A stretch of 64,000 nucleotides of DNA from a virus, in the IMG/VR virus record IMGVR_UViG_3300037247_001890, positions 96,001 through 160,000 of that record, one strand, 5' to 3'. How positions within the stretch are numbered: position 1 is the first letter of the stretch; each line of letters starts with the position of its first letter. This document shows positions 3,001-57,862 of the stretch, piece by piece. The translations under genes and the position numbers were made by a program. The notes under the pieces are model-generated. The model worked only from the letters and a program-made list of their open reading frames with translations, had not been told where the DNA came from and ran no database searches.

Positions 3001-6000
3001 AGCATCAGGATCTAAATCAGTAATATTCCAACCTGAAAGAGAATTATATGTACTTCCATAAAAATTATCCGCTCCACCAACCGATATATTATTTATAACA
3101 ATACCCCAATCACCAGTAAGGCGAAATCCCCTTGTACAATCCACCATTGTATTATTATAACATCTTACACTACCAGCATCTCCAGCATTTATTCTAACTC
3201 CATAAAAACAATCATAAGTGATGTTGTTAGAAAAATAGATTTTTTCACCCGCACTTAATGAGTCATTAAACCATGCATAGCATTCTTCTGCTCCACCACC
3301 ATCTTTAAGAATACATTTCTCAATTCTTAAATCAACTGTCCCTGTTAAAGCCATCAGCGACTGAGTAGCGGTATCTAGGGTAGTAGAAAAAGCAATACCC
3401 TCAAAACGAACATGGTCTTCTTGAATTATGACTGACTCAGCAGAACCAGTATACTCAAATCTATACTTATTTCCAGTTGGGTAAACTCCAGCATGTCTGT
3501 AGCTTTCAGTAGGATCAGTCCATATTTTTATGTAATTAGCAGATTCTGTAGTCCAACCAGCTATGCTAAAAGTATCCGTATCTGCAGTACCACCAGTACA
3601 TCTACAAGTAGCAACAGAAGCCTTATACAATCCTACTGCAGTTAAATCAGTTTCCTCGTTTGATTCCCATACATTTAATGAACTATAATCAAATCCTGCA
3701 CCTGAATCAGGATCAACTATTCTATTGTATTCTAGAGAATGATGAGCACCAATATCAAAATTATCAGTAGATGAAGACCCGCGAGAATTTCCTAGAACAT
3801 CATCTGTAACAGGAGAGTTAGCGTCTGCATAAAGATTAGTACCATGGAACATGGCTAAAGTATCTTCAGCAGTTAAAAAATAATTTCCAGGTTGAAAATC
3901 AGGAGTTCCAAAAATATTAGAGGTTACACGATAGGCTTCATTACCTGTATCAAATGCGTCAGAACTTAAAGTTAATTGAGTGTCTGAATCAACCACCGTC
4001 ACATAAGCATAACTTGAATCAGTTGTATTAGCTACAACGGAACCAACTATTGCAGCACTTAACCCACCACCAGAATCATTTAATTGATTTGCACCGTAAG
4101 AAGTTGCTGTACCAGTCGTTAAATCAGTATTAATCCCACCTAAAGAATTTGCAACTAGTGTTCCGTCTTCAATTATATTATAGCCAGTGTCGTCATTTGT
4201 TGAATCAGTTGCTCTATCAGTTTGATCTTGATATATATTATTGATTTGTATTGTAGTTCCGGCATTTCTATCAACTCCAAGATTTCCTCCAATAAGGACA
4301 TTATTATAGACATAAACCGTTCCAGATGAAGTCATATAAATACATAATGCCGATGCATGTGCAGAAATATCATAAAATATATTATTATGTATTTTAACGA
4401 CTTGATTTGTAAGACCACCACCCTCAATATCAATACCAGTTTGATAATAAGTAGAACCACCGTTTCCTCTAATTAAATTATGGGAAAATATAAACTCACC
4501 AGTATCATCAGCCTGGCTATTCATGTTGATAATATGCCTATTATCCGTAGTTTGATTTCCTAAGAGTTGTATTCCAATAACTCTAAAATGTTCAACGGTA
4601 GTGGCAAGGGTGGAAGAACCAGCAGTTCCCTCAAGCCTGTATTCGTTAGTATCCCATGAACCTCTGTGGCCATAATCTGGATCTAGCAATCCATTGACTT
4701 CAACATAATTATCAGGATCAGTAGTCCATCCATCAAAAGCCATAGTACCATCAGCGGTTCCTGCTGTAGCATAGCATTCTACAATTGCTGTTTTATACAA
4801 TCCTGTAGCAGTTAAATCAGCTTGTTCAGTCGATTCATAACTACTTAAAGAAGTGTAATCATATCCCGGGTATGAAGAATCCGTATCGACTACCTTACCA
4901 TATTCTAGACTGTGATGTGCTCCTACATCAAAGAAATCTGTAGTTGATGCTCCTCTTGAATTTCCTAATACGTCGTCAGTAACAGGAAGATCAGAGTCTG
5001 CATAAAGATTTGTTCCTTTAAATATTGCTACTTCATCAAAATAATTAAGAGTAAAATCATCGCTTTCTTCTGCATTAAAATCAACCGTACCATACATATT
5101 AGTATATACAAAATAATCTTCATTACCGGTATCAAAAATATCATCAGCTAAAGTCAATTGAGTATCTGAATCAACAACAGTTACATAAGAATAAGTTGAA
5201 TCAGTATCATTTTCTACTATACTTCCTACTTGAGCCGCAGATAAACCACCACCCGAATCATTTAATTTGTTAGCACCATAAGATGTTGCAGTTCCCGTAG
5301 CATGGGTAGAACCAAACGTCCCCAAGGCACTAGTTGTATTAATTACATTATATCCTGCTTCAGAACCAAAATTACCATCAAAATCATCAGTACAATTATT
5401 AACTATATTATTTATAGCGATAGTATCACCAGCGGAAGTATCTATTCCCGTGTAACAATTAACTATTGTATTATTATAAAAATAAGCTTTACCACTTGTA
5501 CTATCCTCACCATGCATTCCATTATTATCACCATCATCTCCTATATCATATATTATATTATTAGAAGCATAATTATTACCAGACCCCGTATTATTAGACA
5601 TGTAAATACCCGTCCCACCTCCACCAGCCGTATCATGTCTAACTATACATTTTTCAATTCTATTCTCTCTAGAAGCTCTACATCTAATATTAATAGCACT
5701 TGCTACATTTACCGCAGTAATTTGTAAACCGATTATCCGAGTATAATTTTGTTCAACGGTGACTGTATTAGAGCCTGCATTTATAGAAGTTATCCTATAC
5801 TCACTATCATCCCACTTACCGCGATGTCCATAAGAAGAATCTAATAGACAATTAACTTCAACATAATTTCCGTCCTCTGTTGTCCATCCATCTATAGTTG
5901 TTCCACTACCCTGTGAATCAATAGTACCAGATGTAGCATAACATTCAAAAACTACGTACTCGTCCGAACCAGAAGTGAGAGTTATATCACCCTGTTCAGT

Positions 6001-55551: not shown

Positions 55552-56310
55552 ATGGCAGAAACTCAGCTACACCAACACCTGGCGGCCGAGCCCAATATTA
55601 AGGCAAAAGAGCTCGCGCTAGGTAAAGAAACAGAACATACCTTAAGCAAAAAAGCACATCACTTTGTGGGTAATGTTCGTACATACCAGCCAAAAGAGGA
55701 TACTGGTGAAAAATTTCCGGATGAGCTTGAACCTCTCGTAACTACTGTACCGGAAAAATTACAATATTATTTGGATTCTCTTTCAGACCTAATAAGTCAT
55801 TCAGTTGTAAAAGAAGAGACCAATGCTACTGCTATCGCAGATCTTATTTATGATAAGAAAGTCATAAAGAAAGACGTACATGCAACGGCTTTATTGACCC
55901 TGGAAAATAAATTAAAAGGATTAAGATCTAAATTGATGGCCATTCCTACCCTGGATCCAAAATATATGTGGAACTGGAATAAAGATCAAAATTATTACCA
56001 AACAGATCCAATCCAAACTCTGAAATCTAAGAAAGTTCCAACAGTTTTAGTTAAGTATGAAGCGACAGATAAGCATCCGGCACAGACTGAATTGATTCAT
56101 GAGGATCAAACAGTTGGAATATGGACAACAACAAAGCTTTCTGGAGCAATTTCGTCAAAAATGAAATCCGAAATATTGACTCGCTACGACAAGTGGGAAT
56201 TAGCTGTAAAAGATGCCCGTCAAAGAGCCAATAACGCGAAACTTGTTGTTGACGGAAAACTCGGAGTTGTTATTACTGATAGCATTCTCCATGGAACTTT
56301 ACCAATATAA
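55552..56310 (+). CDS. Uncharacterised 252-aa protein; candidate partner of the downstream RNA
   Basis: QLHQHLAAE...GNVRTYQPKED.GE..P...ATALLTLE..L...IPTLDP...YEATDKHPAQ...VG.W....LSGA...AVKDARQRAN. I recall this pattern as a conserved hypothetical family; unverified. Confidence 0.75.
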   Translation: MAETQLHQHLAAEPNIKAKELALGKETEHTLSKKAHHFVGNVRTYQPKEDTGEKFPDELEPLVTTVPEKLQYYLDSLSDLISHSVVKEETNATAIADLIYDKKVIKKDVHATALLTLENKLKGLRSKLMAIPTLDPKYMWNWNKDQNYYQTDPIQTLKSKKVPTVLVKYEATDKHPAQTELIHEDQTVGIWTTTKLSGAISSKMKSEILTRYDKWELAVKDARQRANNAKLVVDGKLGVVITDSILHGTLPI

Positions 56311-56519
56311 ATGACACTAGACTCAAGCTAAGACTCAGACTAAAAATCCTGTTTTTGTTTGTAAGAGGTAAATAGGTAGATCCAGTACCAACTTCCATAT
56401 GGAAGTTCGAAAATTCTAACCGTTAGCTTCTGAAGACAATATAAATCAGTTTTAAACTTAGACTTTGTGTCCAGACTAATACTGCAACACGCCTAAAGTA
56501 ACCGTTTGTATTTTTTTCC

Positions 56520-56604
56520 ATCAAAACAGGGGTTCGATTCCCCTCCGCGCCTCCAGGTATGAACACGTCACATACGGCGCGGTCGTCTAGCGGTAAGACG
56601 TGAT
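56520..56604 (+). ncRNA. Circularly permuted tRNA-like domain (YrlA/Y-RNA-like order: T arm, acceptor, D arm)
   Basis: T arm agggg-TTCGATT-cccct (56528-56544); ccgcgcc-T-CCA (56545-56555); linker hairpin; ggcgcgg (56576-56582); D arm gtct-AGCGGTA-agac (56585-56599); closed by atca/tgat. No anticodon loop. Confidence 0.85.
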
Positions 56605-56709
56605 CGTTTCAGACTAAACAACAAACTGGTGAAAATTCAACTAGACAGGCATAAGCGGTGAGCTCTCAAACATCAACTAACACTTGAAATTTGATTGATT
56701 TCATACTTT

Positions 56710-56751
56710 GCGCGCGGCATACTCGGGGTACGAGCAGCTGCGCGCTTTTTT
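56710..56751 (+). terminator. Intrinsic terminator
   Basis: gcgcgcggc...gctgcgcgc followed by TTTTTT. Confidence 0.75.
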
Positions 56752-56773
56752 ATTTAAAAGGAAACAAATATTA

Positions 56774-57433
56774 ATGGCAAAAACAATAGGTGACACATAC
56801 ATAGCGATCGTTTTAGACGGTAGTGGATCTATGTCAGGAGACATACAGACAACAATTACAGGTGTCAACGAGATCATAGATTTAATGAAAGCTGAAAAAA
56901 CAAAACTTGCTGGAAAAGTGAAAGTATCTTTGGTTGTATTCCGCAACCGTGAAGGCGAAGTAATTTATTTTAATGAAGACGCCGATAAAGCCTCTCATTT
57001 GGACAATGAAAATTATATACCATCAGGATCAACCCCTATGTATGATGGTATAGGACAAGCAATAAAATTAATTGATGGGGTTATCAAAGACGATGATGCA
57101 GCACTTGTCTATATTTTTACAGACGGCTGGGAGAATAGTTCATCAATTTATAATAAAGAAGACATCAATTCTTTGATTGAAGAACGCGAAGAAAGTGGAA
57201 ATTGGACGTTTGTATTTCAAGGGATAGAAGGTCTCGATAAACAATTGGATTTAAATTTTGCTACGAACAATGTTATGTCATATAGCGACTCTGCTGGAGG
57301 ACGTAAATGGGCATACCAAGAAACTGCTAAAGGACTCCAATCATATTTTGATTCAAGACACAAGGGATACACGCAAGTCTCAAATTTTTACGATCCGGAC
57401 AAGCGAACGTTCGAAAATAAGAAAAAGGAATGA
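56774..57433 (+). CDS. Stand-alone vWA domain protein (start moved to MAKTIGD)
   Basis: IVLDGSGSM (MIDAS DxSxS), GSTPMYDGIG, IFTDGWENSS, WTFVF.G; SD AAGGA before 56774. Confidence 0.88.
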   Translation: MAKTIGDTYIAIVLDGSGSMSGDIQTTITGVNEIIDLMKAEKTKLAGKVKVSLVVFRNREGEVIYFNEDADKASHLDNENYIPSGSTPMYDGIGQAIKLIDGVIKDDDAALVYIFTDGWENSSSIYNKEDINSLIEEREESGNWTFVFQGIEGLDKQLDLNFATNNVMSYSDSAGGRKWAYQETAKGLQSYFDSRHKGYTQVSNFYDPDKRTFENKKKE

Positions 57434-57468
57434 AAAGTACTGGTATAATTACCAGTACACCTAACCCA

Positions 57469-57597
57469 CGGGGGTAGTTTAAAAAAGACTAATCAAAAAC
57501 GCAATGCAGTGTAAGCCCTGAAGCTGGGAGCCTATCCGTTAAAAAAGGCAGGTTATACGGCAGCGATGAGACGCGGAGAAGCGTTTTCCGTCCCCCG
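57469..57597 (+). ncRNA. ~130-nt four-arm structured element (degenerate cloverleaf-like)
   Basis: cggggg/cccccg closing stem; tagttt/agacta; long gtgtaa/ttatac arm; gagacgc/gcgtttt. Confidence 0.5.
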
Positions 57598-57626
57598 AAA
57601 GTATAATAATTTATTCTAAGAAACTT

Positions 57627-57838
57627 CAAGCTCGTGGGTATTATGTAGTGCCATTCGAGGTTATCTACGTATACCCTAGAAGTCCGTAATGGTGGTAAAT
57701 TGCTTCAAGAAAAGCACATCCCACGGGTCGGAACCCTGGGCCTCGAAGAGATTCTTACCATGGACATGGTAATCGTCCACCAGTGAATTGAGGGGATCAA
57801 AACTTGTGTGAAGCGGTTAAAATCCGCAAACGAGCTTG
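57627..57838 (+). ncRNA. ~210-nt multi-stem pseudoknotted RNA (raiA-motif-like architecture suspected)
   Basis: P1 caagctcgt/acgagcttg; gggta-tatgtag/ctacgta-taccc; loop ttcgagg pairs with cctcgaa (57741-57747); ggtgg/ccacc encloses three hairpins. Confidence 0.7.
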
Positions 57839-57862
57839 TTTATAATAAGGAGATATTTTTAA

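What the first reader, a model, noticed from the sequence alone, without database searches (positions are those of the whole stretch)
55552..57433. Candidate new RNP system: unknown protein + RNA with permuted tRNA-mimic domain + stand-alone vWA, with no Ro60
Seen: a ~440-nt non-coding region starts right after the stop of the 252-aa gene. It contains a near-perfect tRNA elbow in permuted order: T arm (TTCGATT loop), 3' acceptor strand ccgcgcc-T-CCA, 20-nt hairpin linker, 5' acceptor strand ggcgcgg, U8, D arm with AGCGGTA loop. The anticodon arm is replaced by a stem leading into the rest of the RNA (atca/tgat, then accgtttgt with acaaac-t-ggt). A terminator and a MIDAS vWA gene follow. Knowledge: this permutation characterises YrlA-class bacterial Y RNAs, which normally lie next to Ro60/Rsr (TROVE+vWA); no TROVE gene is visible in this window. 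Inference: a Ro-independent tRNA-mimic RNP. Because CCA and a mature-like 5' end are both encoded, RNase P cleavage at 56576 plus 3' trimming could give a two-piece RNA with a chargeable end (GGC/GCC with U73 resembles tRNA-Cys or Gly identity). It might act as a decoy for anticodon nucleases or other tRNA-sensing defences, or as a tether to nucleases or the ribosome.
Basis: partly seen in the sequence, partly recalled or inferred. Interest (0 to 1): 0.9.

Follow-up and report, generated by a model that had tools for sequence, protein, structure and literature searches.

The report
One-headed tRNA-mimic RNA beside DUF7873
A phage gene of unknown function (DUF7873) is followed by a folded ~440-base RNA carrying a back-to-front tRNA look-alike; the gene-RNA pair recurs in hundreds of phages and bacteria and appears in no paper or RNA library I could search, but the neighbouring vWA gene is not part of it and the phage does carry a Ro60 protein with its own Y RNA elsewhere.

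Summary
At 56528-56599 lies a circularly permuted tRNA-like domain. My pattern scanner finds no other in the 64-kb window, and 11 of its 29 base pairs show compensatory changes in relatives. It is the core of a ~440-nt RNA that starts at the stop codon of a DUF7873 gene.

The gene-RNA pairing holds widely: 69 of 75 viral loci and 76 of 80 bacterial loci with a DUF7873 gene carry one to three such modules just downstream on the same strand. This scan has reported the pair many times on other DNA. Most relatives have two tRNA-like heads; this lineage has one, and a variable hairpin replaces the first.

- **vWA gene:** it is a neighbour only in this phage lineage.
- **Encoded CCA:** it is unique to this phage. 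Relatives have CUA, CAG or CAA. C74-Y75 is conserved family-wide.
- **"No Ro60":** true of the window, false of the genome. About 93 kb away the phage encodes a Ro60-fold protein with its own YrlA-like RNA, plus RtcB.

Best reading: a Ro60-independent RNA-protein particle. A predicted DUF7873 homodimer binds six-base repeats, and the head is built as an RNase P substrate. Binding, processing and function are inferred, not shown.

The parts
55552..56310 (+). DUF7873 gene (252 aa), the conserved protein partner
   Evidence: PF25283 E 5.5e-69. There are 423 homologues at E<=1e-10. AF2 model pLDDT 86.6 with no convincing fold match. Predicted symmetric homodimer.
56318..56341 (+). Hexamer tract 1: four in-phase NARNYU units (UAGACU CAAGCU AAGACU CAGACU), starting 8 nt after the stop codon
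   Evidence: The tract is nearly invariant in lineage relatives. Equivalent tracts occur in other phyla.
56346..56445 (+). Variable hairpin domain at the place where most relatives carry the first tRNA-like head
   Evidence: Its sequence differs among close relatives while the flanks are conserved. The MFE fold gives stems here. The scanner finds no module.
56447..56477 (+). Hexamer tract 2 (three in-phase units) plus a further AGACU
   Evidence: Conserved in relatives.
56501..56509 (+). 5' strand of the long-range helix; pairs with 56621-56630 with one bulged U
   Evidence: 4 of its 9 pairs change on both sides in relatives.
56520..56523 (+). 3'-side strand of the stem at the anticodon-stem position; pairs with 56601-56604
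   Evidence: 3 of 4 pairs are compensatory. Family-wide this stem is 5/5 paired in 132 of 232 modules, against 36 of 232 with shuffled partners.
56528..56544 (+). T arm: 5-bp stem, loop UUCGAUU
   Evidence: Matches the Rfam tmRNA T-arm segment.
56545..56555 (+). 3' acceptor strand (7 nt), discriminator U at 56552, CCA at 56553-56555
   Evidence: Only this phage has CCA. Relatives have CUA, CAG or CAA. Family-wide, C74 is present in 207 of 232 modules and Y75 in 214 of 232.
56556..56575 (+). Acceptor linker hairpin, the hypervariable site. Its 17-nt core recurs once more in the genome, in the Ro60-linked Y RNA
   Evidence: Relatives L009 and L010 carry roughly 240-nt insertions here.
56576..56582 (+). 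5' acceptor strand. The predicted RNase P site is between 56575 and 56576
   Evidence: 7/7 pairs with 56545-56551. Cleavage is inferred from PMC4201824, not shown.
56585..56599 (+). D arm: 4-bp stem, loop AGCGGUA with GG
56601..56630 (+). 5'-side strand of the anticodon-position stem, an internal loop with AGACU (56611-56615), and the 3' strand of the long-range helix
56631..56709 (+). Conserved 3' region of the RNA; structure not resolved
   Evidence: Conserved in relatives except L174.
56710..56751 (+). Terminator hairpin plus U tract. The loop sequence is almost invariant across the lineage
   Evidence: MFE fold and alignments. The simple terminator scan missed it because the loop is long.
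56777..57433 (+). Small stand-alone vWA gene (218 aa, MIDAS DGSGSM). A lineage-specific neighbour, not a core part
   Evidence: PF00092 / PF13519. Adjacent in 8 lineage loci and in none of about 160 other DUF7873 loci.

Best explanation
55552-56751 is one unit: the DUF7873 gene and, probably on the same transcript (no terminator between them), a ~440-nt structured non-coding RNA ending at a conserved terminator.

The RNA is a lineage variant of a widespread, apparently undescribed family of DUF7873-linked RNAs. That family is built from six-base repeat tracts (NARNYU) and circularly permuted, anticodon-less tRNA-like heads. Most members have two heads. Here the first head has been replaced by a variable hairpin, and only the second type remains (discriminator U).

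Proposed mechanism, all inferred:
1. DUF7873, predicted to be a symmetric homodimer, binds the single-stranded hexamer tracts and holds the RNA.
2. The head has a 7-bp acceptor stem, a T/D elbow and N73-C74-Y75, so it is recognised by host tRNA enzymes. RNase P would cut at 56575/56576 and the 3' end would be trimmed and completed to CCA.
3. This would give a nicked, base-paired, exonuclease-resistant particle, as shown for the M. smegmatis Y RNA YrlA.
4. The particle would then dock on or compete for tRNA-binding machinery during infection.

It acts in parallel with, not through, the phage's own Ro60/YrlA-like RNA/RtcB set, which lies 93 kb away. The vWA gene is a lineage-specific neighbour.
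For: **Shown**
- The module is unique in the window.
- Lineage covariation: 96% paired, and 11 of 29 pairs compensatory against 0-1 in slid controls.
- DUF7873 identity. At least 296 viral contigs and at least 588 bacterial species contigs encode it.
- Modules lie within 800 nt downstream on the same strand in 69/75 viral, 76/80 genome and 12/12 phage-record or close loci. None lie on the opposite strand.
- The anticodon-position stem, which the scanner does not use, pairs far above shuffled partners: mean 4.39 against 3.49, sd 0.05.
- In-phase hexamer runs occur in 58 of 172 loci downstream, and 0 in 125 kb of gene bodies.
- C74 is present in 89% of modules and Y75 in 92%. The acceptor is 7/7 paired in 204 of 232.
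- No consistent protein neighbour besides the RNA in Nocardia, Streptomyces or Bacteroidota.
- 18 of 20 near-complete DUF7873 phage genomes lack TROVE and DUF2828.

**Supportive model only**
- Homodimer ipSAE 0.62 against a best control of 0.00. This mark was reached by 20 of 30 proteins solved as pairs of one chain and by 1 of 23 solved as single chains.
- The runs agree in at least 79% of contacts, and the partner pLDDT is at least 76. My own alignment was used, so these counts hold only roughly.

**Precedent**
- M. smegmatis YrlA has a 7-bp acceptor stem, is cut by RNase P in vivo and in vitro, and gains CA (PMC4201824).

**From my own knowledge**
- C74 and C75 of pre-tRNA pair with two G's in the L15 loop of bacterial RNase P RNA. 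A U at 75 would still wobble-pair.
Against: - There are no transcript, end-mapping, binding or phenotype data.
- Gene-RNA linkage could reflect co-regulation rather than binding.
- The DUF7873 fold has no informative match, so RNA binding is unproven.
- Its invariant residues (N, E, K, T, H, Q, D) look as much like an enzyme site as an RNA-binding surface.
- In this phage the linker forms a hairpin that stacks directly on the acceptor stem, which may hinder RNase P.
- Many relatives have very short linkers (median 9 nt), which fits an uncut capped stem.
- The same phage has a Ro60 and shares a linker hairpin between the two RNAs, so cross-talk with Ro60 is not excluded.
- An earlier check in this scan reported that one pre-set word-pattern test found the pairing in only 17.8% of genes. 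My samples are the best-scoring 80 loci of each collection, not random ones.
Confidence: 0.6

Rival explanations
1. It is an ordinary Y RNA of the YrlA class that works with the phage's own Ro60, encoded elsewhere in the genome. DUF7873 would be a bystander or accessory.
For: - The genome encodes a Ro60-fold protein: DUF2828 + DUF7788; Foldseek to Ro60 structures E 9e-9, TM 0.54-0.60.
- The module topology is that of YrlA.
- RF02553 gives sub-threshold hits (25-38 bits) on modules of relatives.
- The 17-nt linker hairpin is shared only with the Ro60-linked RNA.
Against: - That Ro60 has its own YrlA-like RNA directly downstream, at 34 bits.
- The window's RNA gives no RF02553 hit even at E<=10, and it lacks the GNCGAAN0-1G Ro-binding motif.
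- The RNA follows DUF7873, not Ro60, across hundreds of loci.
- 18 of 20 near-complete DUF7873 phage genomes have no Ro60-like gene.
Confidence: 0.1
2. It is a chargeable two-piece tRNA or tmRNA analogue. After RNase P and 3' processing, the CCA end is aminoacylated and the RNA acts on the ribosome.
For: - The gene order is permuted, with T arm, acceptor, NCCA, spacer and 5' strand as in permuted tmRNA genes.
- The best Rfam sub-threshold hit is tmRNA_permuted.
- CCA is enriched family-wide: 59 of 232 modules against about 1.6% expected by chance.
Against: - The Rfam score is 19.6 bits against a cut-off of 47, and ARAGORN finds nothing.
- The third acceptor pair is C3:G70, not G3:U70. G3:U70 occurs in only 10 of 211 modules.
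- The D arm is canonical, unlike tmRNA.
- The CCA is lost in the closest relatives.
- There is no anticodon for Cys or Gly identity.
- Gordonia phage Phendrix carries a true tmRNA (89 bits) as well as the DUF7873 RNA.
Confidence: 0.07
3. The RNA works without a dedicated protein. It could be a decoy or sponge for host factors that recognise the tRNA elbow or acceptor end (defence toxins, RNase P, the CCA enzyme), or a self-assembling structured RNA. DUF7873 would be merely co-expressed.
For: - In other phages the locus sits inside tRNA gene clusters.
- The head keeps every feature needed by acceptor- and elbow-reading enzymes.
- The DUF7873 fold shows no known RNA-binding domain.
Against: - The gene order and strand are strict across phyla.
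- No other conserved neighbour exists.
- Conserved single-stranded six-base repeats are hard to explain without a periodic binder.
- With no anticodon loop, anticodon nucleases are excluded as targets.
Confidence: 0.15
4. It is a decayed or rearranged tRNA gene remnant in a long 3' UTR, with no function of its own.
For: The phage has 27 tRNA genes, so tRNA-derived debris is conceivable.
Against: - The permuted order, the compensatory changes in all five helices and the conservation across phyla are incompatible with decay.
- This phage's tRNA cluster is about 95 kb away.
Confidence: 0.02

Closest known systems
YrlA-class bacterial and phage Y RNAs with Ro60/Rsr, especially the Mycobacterium smegmatis form (Rfam RF02553; Chen et al. 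2014, PMC4201824; bioRxiv 10.1101/312249)
   Same: - A permuted tRNA-like domain: T arm, acceptor stem closed at the top, D arm, with the anticodon arm replaced by a stem leading into the rest of the RNA.
- A dedicated adjacent protein gene.
- The M. smegmatis form has a 7-bp acceptor stem, is cut by RNase P and gains CA.
- Tandem RNAs from one precursor.
   Different: - The partner is DUF7873, not a TROVE/vWA ring protein.
- The RNA is three to four times longer, carries six-base repeat tracts and usually has two heads.
- It lacks the Ro-binding motif and falls below the RF02553 cut-off, with no hit at all in this window.
- The same phage has a separate Ro60 with its own YrlA-like RNA.
Two-piece (circularly permuted) tmRNA (Rfam RF04321; Keiler, Shapiro and Williams 2000, cited in PMC11915505)
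   Same: The permuted gene order, in which a spacer between the CCA end and the 5' acceptor strand is removed by tRNA-processing enzymes, leaving pieces held by base pairing.
   Different: No alanine identity pair, a canonical D arm, no conserved tag frame, no pseudoknot set and no SmpB link. It co-exists with a true tmRNA in Gordonia phage Phendrix.
SPFH/Band-7-associated tRNA-like RNA proposed by Burroughs and Aravind 2016 (Nucleic Acids Res 44:8525). Recalled from the abstract; the paper was not held, so this was not checked
   Same: The idea of a Ro60-independent scaffold protein with a cognate tRNA-like non-coding RNA in RNA-repair contexts.
   Different: DUF7873 gives no SPFH/Band-7 Pfam or fold match here. 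I could not compare the RNAs.
Proteins that read RNA in fixed short periods. From my own knowledge: TRAP on spaced GAG/UAG triplets; Cas7 backbones on 6-nt steps of crRNA
   Same: Tracts of 3-6 in-phase six-base units next to an oligomerising protein suggest one protomer or site per repeat.
   Different: This is an analogy only. Foldseek's weak Cas7 hits (E 7.5e-3, TM 0.12) were not confirmed by VIA-align. DUF7873 is predicted to be a dimer, not a ring or filament.

Membership tests
YrlA / Y RNA (RF02553) | Score at or above the Rfam gathering cut-off (69 bits) | tested here: not met
   No RF02553 match at E<=10 on 56250-56800. Modules of relatives score 25-38 bits.
YrlA / Y RNA (RF02553) | Permuted tRNA-like domain: T arm, capped acceptor stem, D arm | tested here: met
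YrlA / Y RNA (RF02553) | Encoded next to a Ro60/Rsr gene | tested here: not met
   The adjacent gene is DUF7873. The genome's Ro60-fold gene lies 93 kb away with its own YrlA-like RNA.
YrlA / Y RNA (RF02553) | Ro-binding helix with the GNCGAAN0-1G motif (PMC4201824) | tested here: not met
   No match to the motif in 56311-56752.
YrlA / Y RNA (RF02553) | Bound by Ro60 in vivo | not testable with these tools
   Needs immunoprecipitation.
Permuted two-piece tmRNA (RF04321) | Score at or above the gathering cut-off (47 bits), or an ARAGORN call | tested here: not met
   19.6 bits. ARAGORN finds 0 genes in the window.
Permuted two-piece tmRNA (RF04321) | G3:U70 alanine identity pair | tested here: not met
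   The third pair is C:G. G3:U70 occurs in 10 of 211 family modules.
Permuted two-piece tmRNA (RF04321) | Conserved tag reading frame | tested here: inconclusive
   I inspected alignment A3 by eye only. The region after the head diverges, with deletions in L174 and L010. No formal frame test was run.
DUF7873-linked tRNA-mimic RNA (defined by this scan; unpublished as far as searched) | DUF7873 gene directly upstream on the same strand | tested here: met
DUF7873-linked tRNA-mimic RNA (defined by this scan; unpublished as far as searched) | Permuted head with a 7-bp acceptor stem followed by N73-C74-Y75 | tested here: met
   U-C-C in the window. C74 in 89% and Y75 in 92% of the family.
DUF7873-linked tRNA-mimic RNA (defined by this scan; unpublished as far as searched) | In-phase six-base repeat tracts (NARNYU) | tested here: met
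   56318-56341 (x4) and 56447-56464 (x3).
DUF7873-linked tRNA-mimic RNA (defined by this scan; unpublished as far as searched) | Two tRNA-like heads | tested here: not met
   One head in the window and in all its lineage relatives. A variable hairpin sits in place of head 1.
Ro60 (TROVE + vWA): the 460-aa protein outside the window, L179:801-2183 | TROVE-type helical ring plus C-terminal vWA fold | tested here: met
   PF05731 itself gives no hit. DUF2828 matches at E 1e-25 and DUF7788 at E 1e-47. AF2 pLDDT is 90. The top 11 listed Foldseek hits are all Ro60/TROVE structures: E 9e-9 to 2e-4, TM 0.41-0.60.
vWA domain (PF00092), 56777-57433 | Pfam score above cut-off and a MIDAS DxSxS motif | tested here: met
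   32.9 bits against a cut-off of 23.8. DGSGS is present in the translation.

The most novel reading that the evidence does not exclude
DUF7873 and its RNA form a new, widespread class of tRNA-mimic ribonucleoprotein that is independent of Ro60.

- A dimeric protein would read six-base repeats on a long RNA.
- The RNA's permuted tRNA heads would be cut and CCA-tailed by the host's own tRNA-maturation enzymes.
- The resulting multi-piece particle would engage tRNA-binding machinery during phage infection and in many Actinomycetes.
- This phage would then run two parallel tRNA-mimic particles (Ro60 type and DUF7873 type) that share an acceptor-linker element.
Probability: 0.45. Interest if true: 0.85.

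Novelty: new variant of a known kind. Interest (0 to 1): 0.75.

Why it matters
Y RNAs with Ro60 are so far the only well-studied bacterial particles built on tRNA mimicry apart from tmRNA. A second protein family with its own, larger tRNA-mimic RNA would show that this design evolved more than once. The family is present in hundreds of phages (often inside their tRNA clusters) and in many Actinomycetes, Chloroflexota and other bacteria. It would give a new handle on how phages and hosts contend over tRNA processing and RNA quality control.

This window adds three specific points:
- A natural one-headed variant, which shows that the second head is the indispensable one.
- A phage that carries both the Ro60 type and the DUF7873 type, so the two are not redundant.
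- A shared linker hairpin and ~240-nt insertions at the top of the acceptor stem. These mark that site as either a spacer that is removed or a free expansion point.

Tried and rejected
- **Close DNA or protein-pattern relatives in public phage collections.** blastn found none, and the single-protein pattern scan of viral contigs found none. Relatives came from the protein databases instead.
- **Known RNA families.** Rfam at gathering thresholds and ARAGORN find nothing in the window.
- **Cas7-like fold for DUF7873.** Foldseek's top rows were Cascade Cas7 chains (E 7.5e-3, prob 0.16, TM 0.12). VIA-align on the same chains and on 48,161 representatives gave only generic helical matches (best Z 8.6, on a designed protein) and no Cas7 row. 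I dropped the idea except as an analogy.
- **Sequence relatives of DUF7873 in the PDB.** None.
- **ESM Atlas.** Only unnamed viral clusters and DIP1984/DUF6847, at TM 0.41-0.60.
- **Group I intron or other known RNA in the ~240-nt acceptor-loop insertions of L009 and L010.** No Rfam hit.
- **Mobile repeat.** The G001 insertion is single-copy in its genome.
- **Small vWA as a split-off Ro60 vWA.** It shares only the MIDAS motif with the phage's Ro60-like protein.
- **Reverse-strand control for the hexamer pattern.** This control is invalid, because NARNYU is nearly its own reverse complement. Gene bodies and upstream regions served as controls instead.
- **Phage-encoded CCA-adding enzyme.** None found in the 85%-complete record.
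- **Burroughs and Aravind 2016.** The paper could not be read.
Full report
**What is in the window.**
- The 252-aa ORF at 55552-56310 is a full-length member of Pfam DUF7873 (E 5.5e-69).
- From its stop codon to the ATG of the next gene (56777) there are 466 nt with no credible ORF.

| Element | Coordinates |
|---|---|
| T arm (loop UUCGAUU) | 56528-56544 |
| 3' acceptor strand | 56545-56551 |
| U73 | 56552 |
| CCA | 56553-56555 |
| Linker hairpin (20 nt) | 56556-56575 |
| 5' acceptor strand | 56576-56582 |
| D arm (loop AGCGGUA) | 56585-56599 |
| Stem at the anticodon-stem position | 56520-56523 with 56601-56604 |
| Bulged 9-bp long-range helix | 56501-56509 with 56621-56630 |
| GC-rich hairpin plus U tract | 56710-56751 |

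- ARAGORN and Rfam at curated thresholds find nothing. The best sub-threshold Rfam match is the permuted tmRNA model at 19.6 bits, against a cut-off of 47.
- A scanner I wrote for the permuted arrangement finds exactly one hit on both strands of the 64-kb window, and it is this one.

**Is it more than chance?**
- The closest relatives of the protein (64-92% identity, from metagenomes) have the same syntenic block: DNA polymerase A, dNMP kinase, three small ORFs, DUF7873, gap, vWA.
- I aligned seven distinct versions of the gap (A3) and scored the structure I derived from the window.
- 96% of cells pair, and 11 of 29 pairs change on both sides. No shuffle out of 500 reaches these values. Sliding the partners by 1-3 columns gives 40-52% paired and 0-1 compensatory pairs. 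All five helices carry at least one compensatory pair.

**The gene-RNA pair is general.**
- tblastn finds DUF7873 in 75 GenBank phage records: Arthrobacter, Rhizobium, Gordonia, Klebsiella and Serratia jumbo phages, Ralstonia RSL1, Vibrio and cyanophages.
- In six records I inspected, the gene is followed by a 250-500-nt stretch with no annotated gene or only small doubtful ORFs. In four of the six it sits amid many tRNA genes, and one or two lie nearby in two others. Each stretch holds one to three permuted modules by my scanner.
- A profile-based scan found at least 296 viral contigs and at least 588 bacterial species contigs encoding the protein. The bacterial ones are mostly Actinomycetes, with Chloroflexota, Armatimonadota and Bacteroidota as well.
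- In the 80 best loci of each set, at least one module lies within 800 nt downstream on the same strand in 69 of 75 viral and 76 of 80 genomic loci. None lies on the opposite strand of the same DNA.
- Upstream, 16 same-strand hits, all in phage and viral loci where tandem tRNA genes can fool the scanner, and none in the genomic loci.
- The stem at the anticodon position is not part of the scanner. It is 5/5 paired in 132 of 232 modules, against 36 of 232 with partners shuffled between loci.
- My samples are top-scoring loci, not random ones. An earlier check in this scan reported a much lower pairing rate by a word-pattern test. The strictness of the rule therefore remains to be measured properly.

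**How this copy differs from the family.**
- In loci where the scanner finds two modules, the first has discriminator A (46 of 58) and the second mostly U (33 of 58).
- The window's head matches the second type in three ways: it lies 218 nt after the stop, it has U73, and it has a 7-nt D loop.
- All members of its lineage have this one head only.
- The place of head 1 (56346-56445) is filled by a hairpin domain whose sequence differs between close relatives, while both flanks are nearly invariant.
- So this is a natural one-headed variant.

**Six-base repeats.**
- Eight nt after the stop codon come four in-phase units of the form NARNYU (56318-56341). Three more lie at 56447-56464, and further AGACU copies at 56473 and 56611.
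- Equivalent in-phase tracts (CAAGCU GAAGCU and the like) precede the heads in Actinomycetes, Chloroflexota, Armatimonadota and phages.
- Strict runs of three or more units occur downstream in 58 of 172 loci, in none of 125 kb of DUF7873 coding sequence, and in 3 upstream regions.
- A periodic single-stranded motif beside an oligomerising protein suggests periodic protein binding. That is inference.

**The protein.**
- AF2 gives a confident model (pLDDT 86.6) made of long helices and a long beta hairpin. The tip of the hairpin carries the family's invariant T-D/K-K/E-H-P-A-Q motif.
- No fold search gave a convincing relative. The weak Cas7 rows from Foldseek were not confirmed.
- A two-copy complex prediction supports a symmetric homodimer:
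  - ipSAE is 0.62 against a best control of 0.00.
  - The mark was reached by 20 of 30 proteins solved as pairs of one chain and by 1 of 23 solved as single chains.
  - The runs agree in at least 79% of contacts, and the partner pLDDT is at least 76.
  - My own alignment was used, so the counts hold only roughly.
- This is model support, not a measurement.

**CCA, processing and charging.**
- The encoded CCA is not conserved. Four close relatives have CUA, and two have CAG or CAA.
- Family-wide, however, the base after the discriminator is C in 207 of 232 modules, and the next is C or U in 214. CCA itself occurs in 59. The acceptor stem is a perfect 7 bp in 204.
- This is the pattern expected if the head is read by bacterial RNase P. 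From my own knowledge, the L15 loop of RNase P RNA pairs two G's with C74 and C75, and a U at 75 still wobble-pairs.
- There is an exact precedent. M. smegmatis YrlA is the only tested Y RNA with a 7-bp acceptor stem. It is cut by RNase P in vivo and in vitro, and its 5' half gains a non-templated CA (PMC4201824).
- The linker is also the most variable part of the RNA. It runs from 3 to over 300 nt, with a median of 9. In relatives L009 and L010 it holds a ~240-nt insertion with no Rfam match. This fits a spacer that is removed, or a free loop.
- I rate cleavage as plausible (about 45%) but not shown. In this phage the linker hairpin stacks directly on the acceptor stem and may impede it.
- Aminoacylation has no support. 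There is no anticodon, the third acceptor pair is C3:G70, and G3:U70 is rare in the family.

**Ro60 after all, but elsewhere.**
- The window is bases 96001-160000 of a 169-kb viral record (35.7% GC) estimated 85% complete. The TROVE model finds nothing in the record.
- Scanning the whole record with my module scanner turned up a second permuted head at genome 58809.
- It lies directly downstream of a 460-aa gene (L179:801-2183), and it hits Rfam YrlA at 34 bits, below the cut-off of 69.
- That protein matches DUF2828 (E 1e-25), DUF7788 (E 1e-47) and PHROG 850 "RNA-binding protein". Its AF2 model (pLDDT 90) has solved Ro60 structures as its top 11 listed Foldseek matches. These include the Ro60 of Thermus phage phiLo (E 9e-9, TM 0.54), Xenopus Ro60 (TM 0.60) and D. 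radiodurans Rsr.
- The gene sits just past the phage's cluster of 27 tRNA genes, which also holds an RtcB ligase gene.
- So this phage has the classical Ro60 / Y RNA / RtcB set, plus the DUF7873 unit 93 kb away among replication genes.
- The relative G001 has both as well.
- Among 30 other DUF7873-bearing viral genomes, TROVE is present in 5 and DUF2828 in 1. Of the 20 that are at least 90% complete, only 2 have either.
- The DUF7873 unit is therefore not generally dependent on a phage Ro60. A host Ro60 cannot be excluded.

**A link between the two RNAs.**
- The 17-nt core of the window's linker hairpin (GGTATGAACAYGTCACA) occurs exactly twice in the genome. Both copies lie at the top of an acceptor stem, one in each RNA.
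- Relatives of the window's RNA have other linkers. The Ro60-linked RNA of relative G001 has a short, unrelated one.
- The flanking acceptor stems differ in sequence, so simple gene conversion is an awkward explanation. A shared trans-acting factor, or a small element that targets this site, are alternatives. I could not discriminate between them.

**The vWA gene.**
- It is a bona fide small vWA with a MIDAS motif. It follows the RNA in all eight lineage loci for which I have DNA, but in none of about 160 other DUF7873 loci within 1.5 kb.
- It shares only the MIDAS motif with the vWA domain of the phage's Ro60-like protein.
- Synteny within one collinear lineage is no evidence of function, so I treat the gene as a neighbour.

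**Comparison and verdict.**
- The head works like, and probably descends from the same stock as, YrlA heads. RF02553 gives sub-threshold hits on relatives' modules.
- The RNA nevertheless fails the membership tests for YrlA: score, Ro60 adjacency and Ro-binding motif. It also fails those for tmRNA: score, identity pair and ARAGORN. In addition, a true tmRNA co-exists with the DUF7873 RNA in Gordonia phage Phendrix.
- I found no paper mentioning DUF7873 or this RNA.
- The nearest idea in print that I recall is Burroughs and Aravind 2016, who proposed a tRNA-like RNA with SPFH/Band-7 scaffolds. I could not read that paper.
- This scan has already reported the DUF7873/tRNA-mimic pair many times on other DNA. 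What this window adds is the one-headed variant, the lineage-specific vWA, the non-conserved CCA, and the co-existence and linker sharing with a Ro60 system.

Noticed in passing
L179:801-2183 and L179:2285-2412 (genome G000:C1 57300-58682 and 58784-58911, outside the window): The same phage encodes a 460-aa Ro60-fold protein (DUF2828 + DUF7788; Foldseek to Ro60 structures E 9e-9). Directly downstream is its own YrlA-like RNA (RF02553, 34 bits) with a terminator. The locus sits just past a cluster of 27 tRNA genes.
   Followed up: yes
Window 56556-56572 and genome G000:C1:58837-58853: The 17-nt linker core GGTATGAACAYGTCACA occurs exactly twice in the 169-kb genome, each time at the top of the acceptor stem of a permuted tRNA-like head (DUF7873-linked and Ro60-linked). 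Relatives have different linkers. The cause is unknown: exchange, a shared factor, or a targeted element.
   Followed up: partly
L009:3491-3732 and L010:3492-3728 (same as L012:2494-2735): Two relatives carry a homologous insertion of about 240 nt exactly between the 3' and 5' acceptor strands. It has no Rfam match and is single-copy in genome G001.
   Followed up: partly
Window 57434-57862: The gap after the vWA gene is a second conserved non-coding region. It has a long-range helix (about 57631 with about 57837) that shows compensatory changes in L010 and L172, and a T-loop-like hairpin just before the RBS of the next ORF. No Rfam hit. It may be another structured RNA or a leader.
   Followed up: partly
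Genome G000:C1:50137-51171 (outside the window): An RtcB RNA ligase gene (E 9e-89) lies inside the tRNA cluster, near the Ro60-like gene. No CCA-adding enzyme gene was found in the record.
   Followed up: partly
L003:1069-1597 (Gordonia phage Phendrix, MN096369.1): Rfam finds a full-length tmRNA (89 bits) in a stretch with no annotated feature between two tRNA genes. It appears to be unannotated in the record.
   Followed up: no
L004:4012-4091 (Klebsiella phage vB_KpM_FBKp24, MW394391.1): The annotated 'tRNA-Sup-TTA' overlaps the T arm and 3' acceptor strand of the second permuted head of the DUF7873 RNA (RF02553 hit at 4056-4149). It is probably a mis-call of the tRNA mimic.
   Followed up: no
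Window 56710-56751: The loop of the terminator hairpin (GGCAUACCCAGGGUAGGGCAG in relatives) is almost invariant down to 69% protein identity. That is more conserved than a plain terminator needs, so it may have a second role.
   Followed up: no
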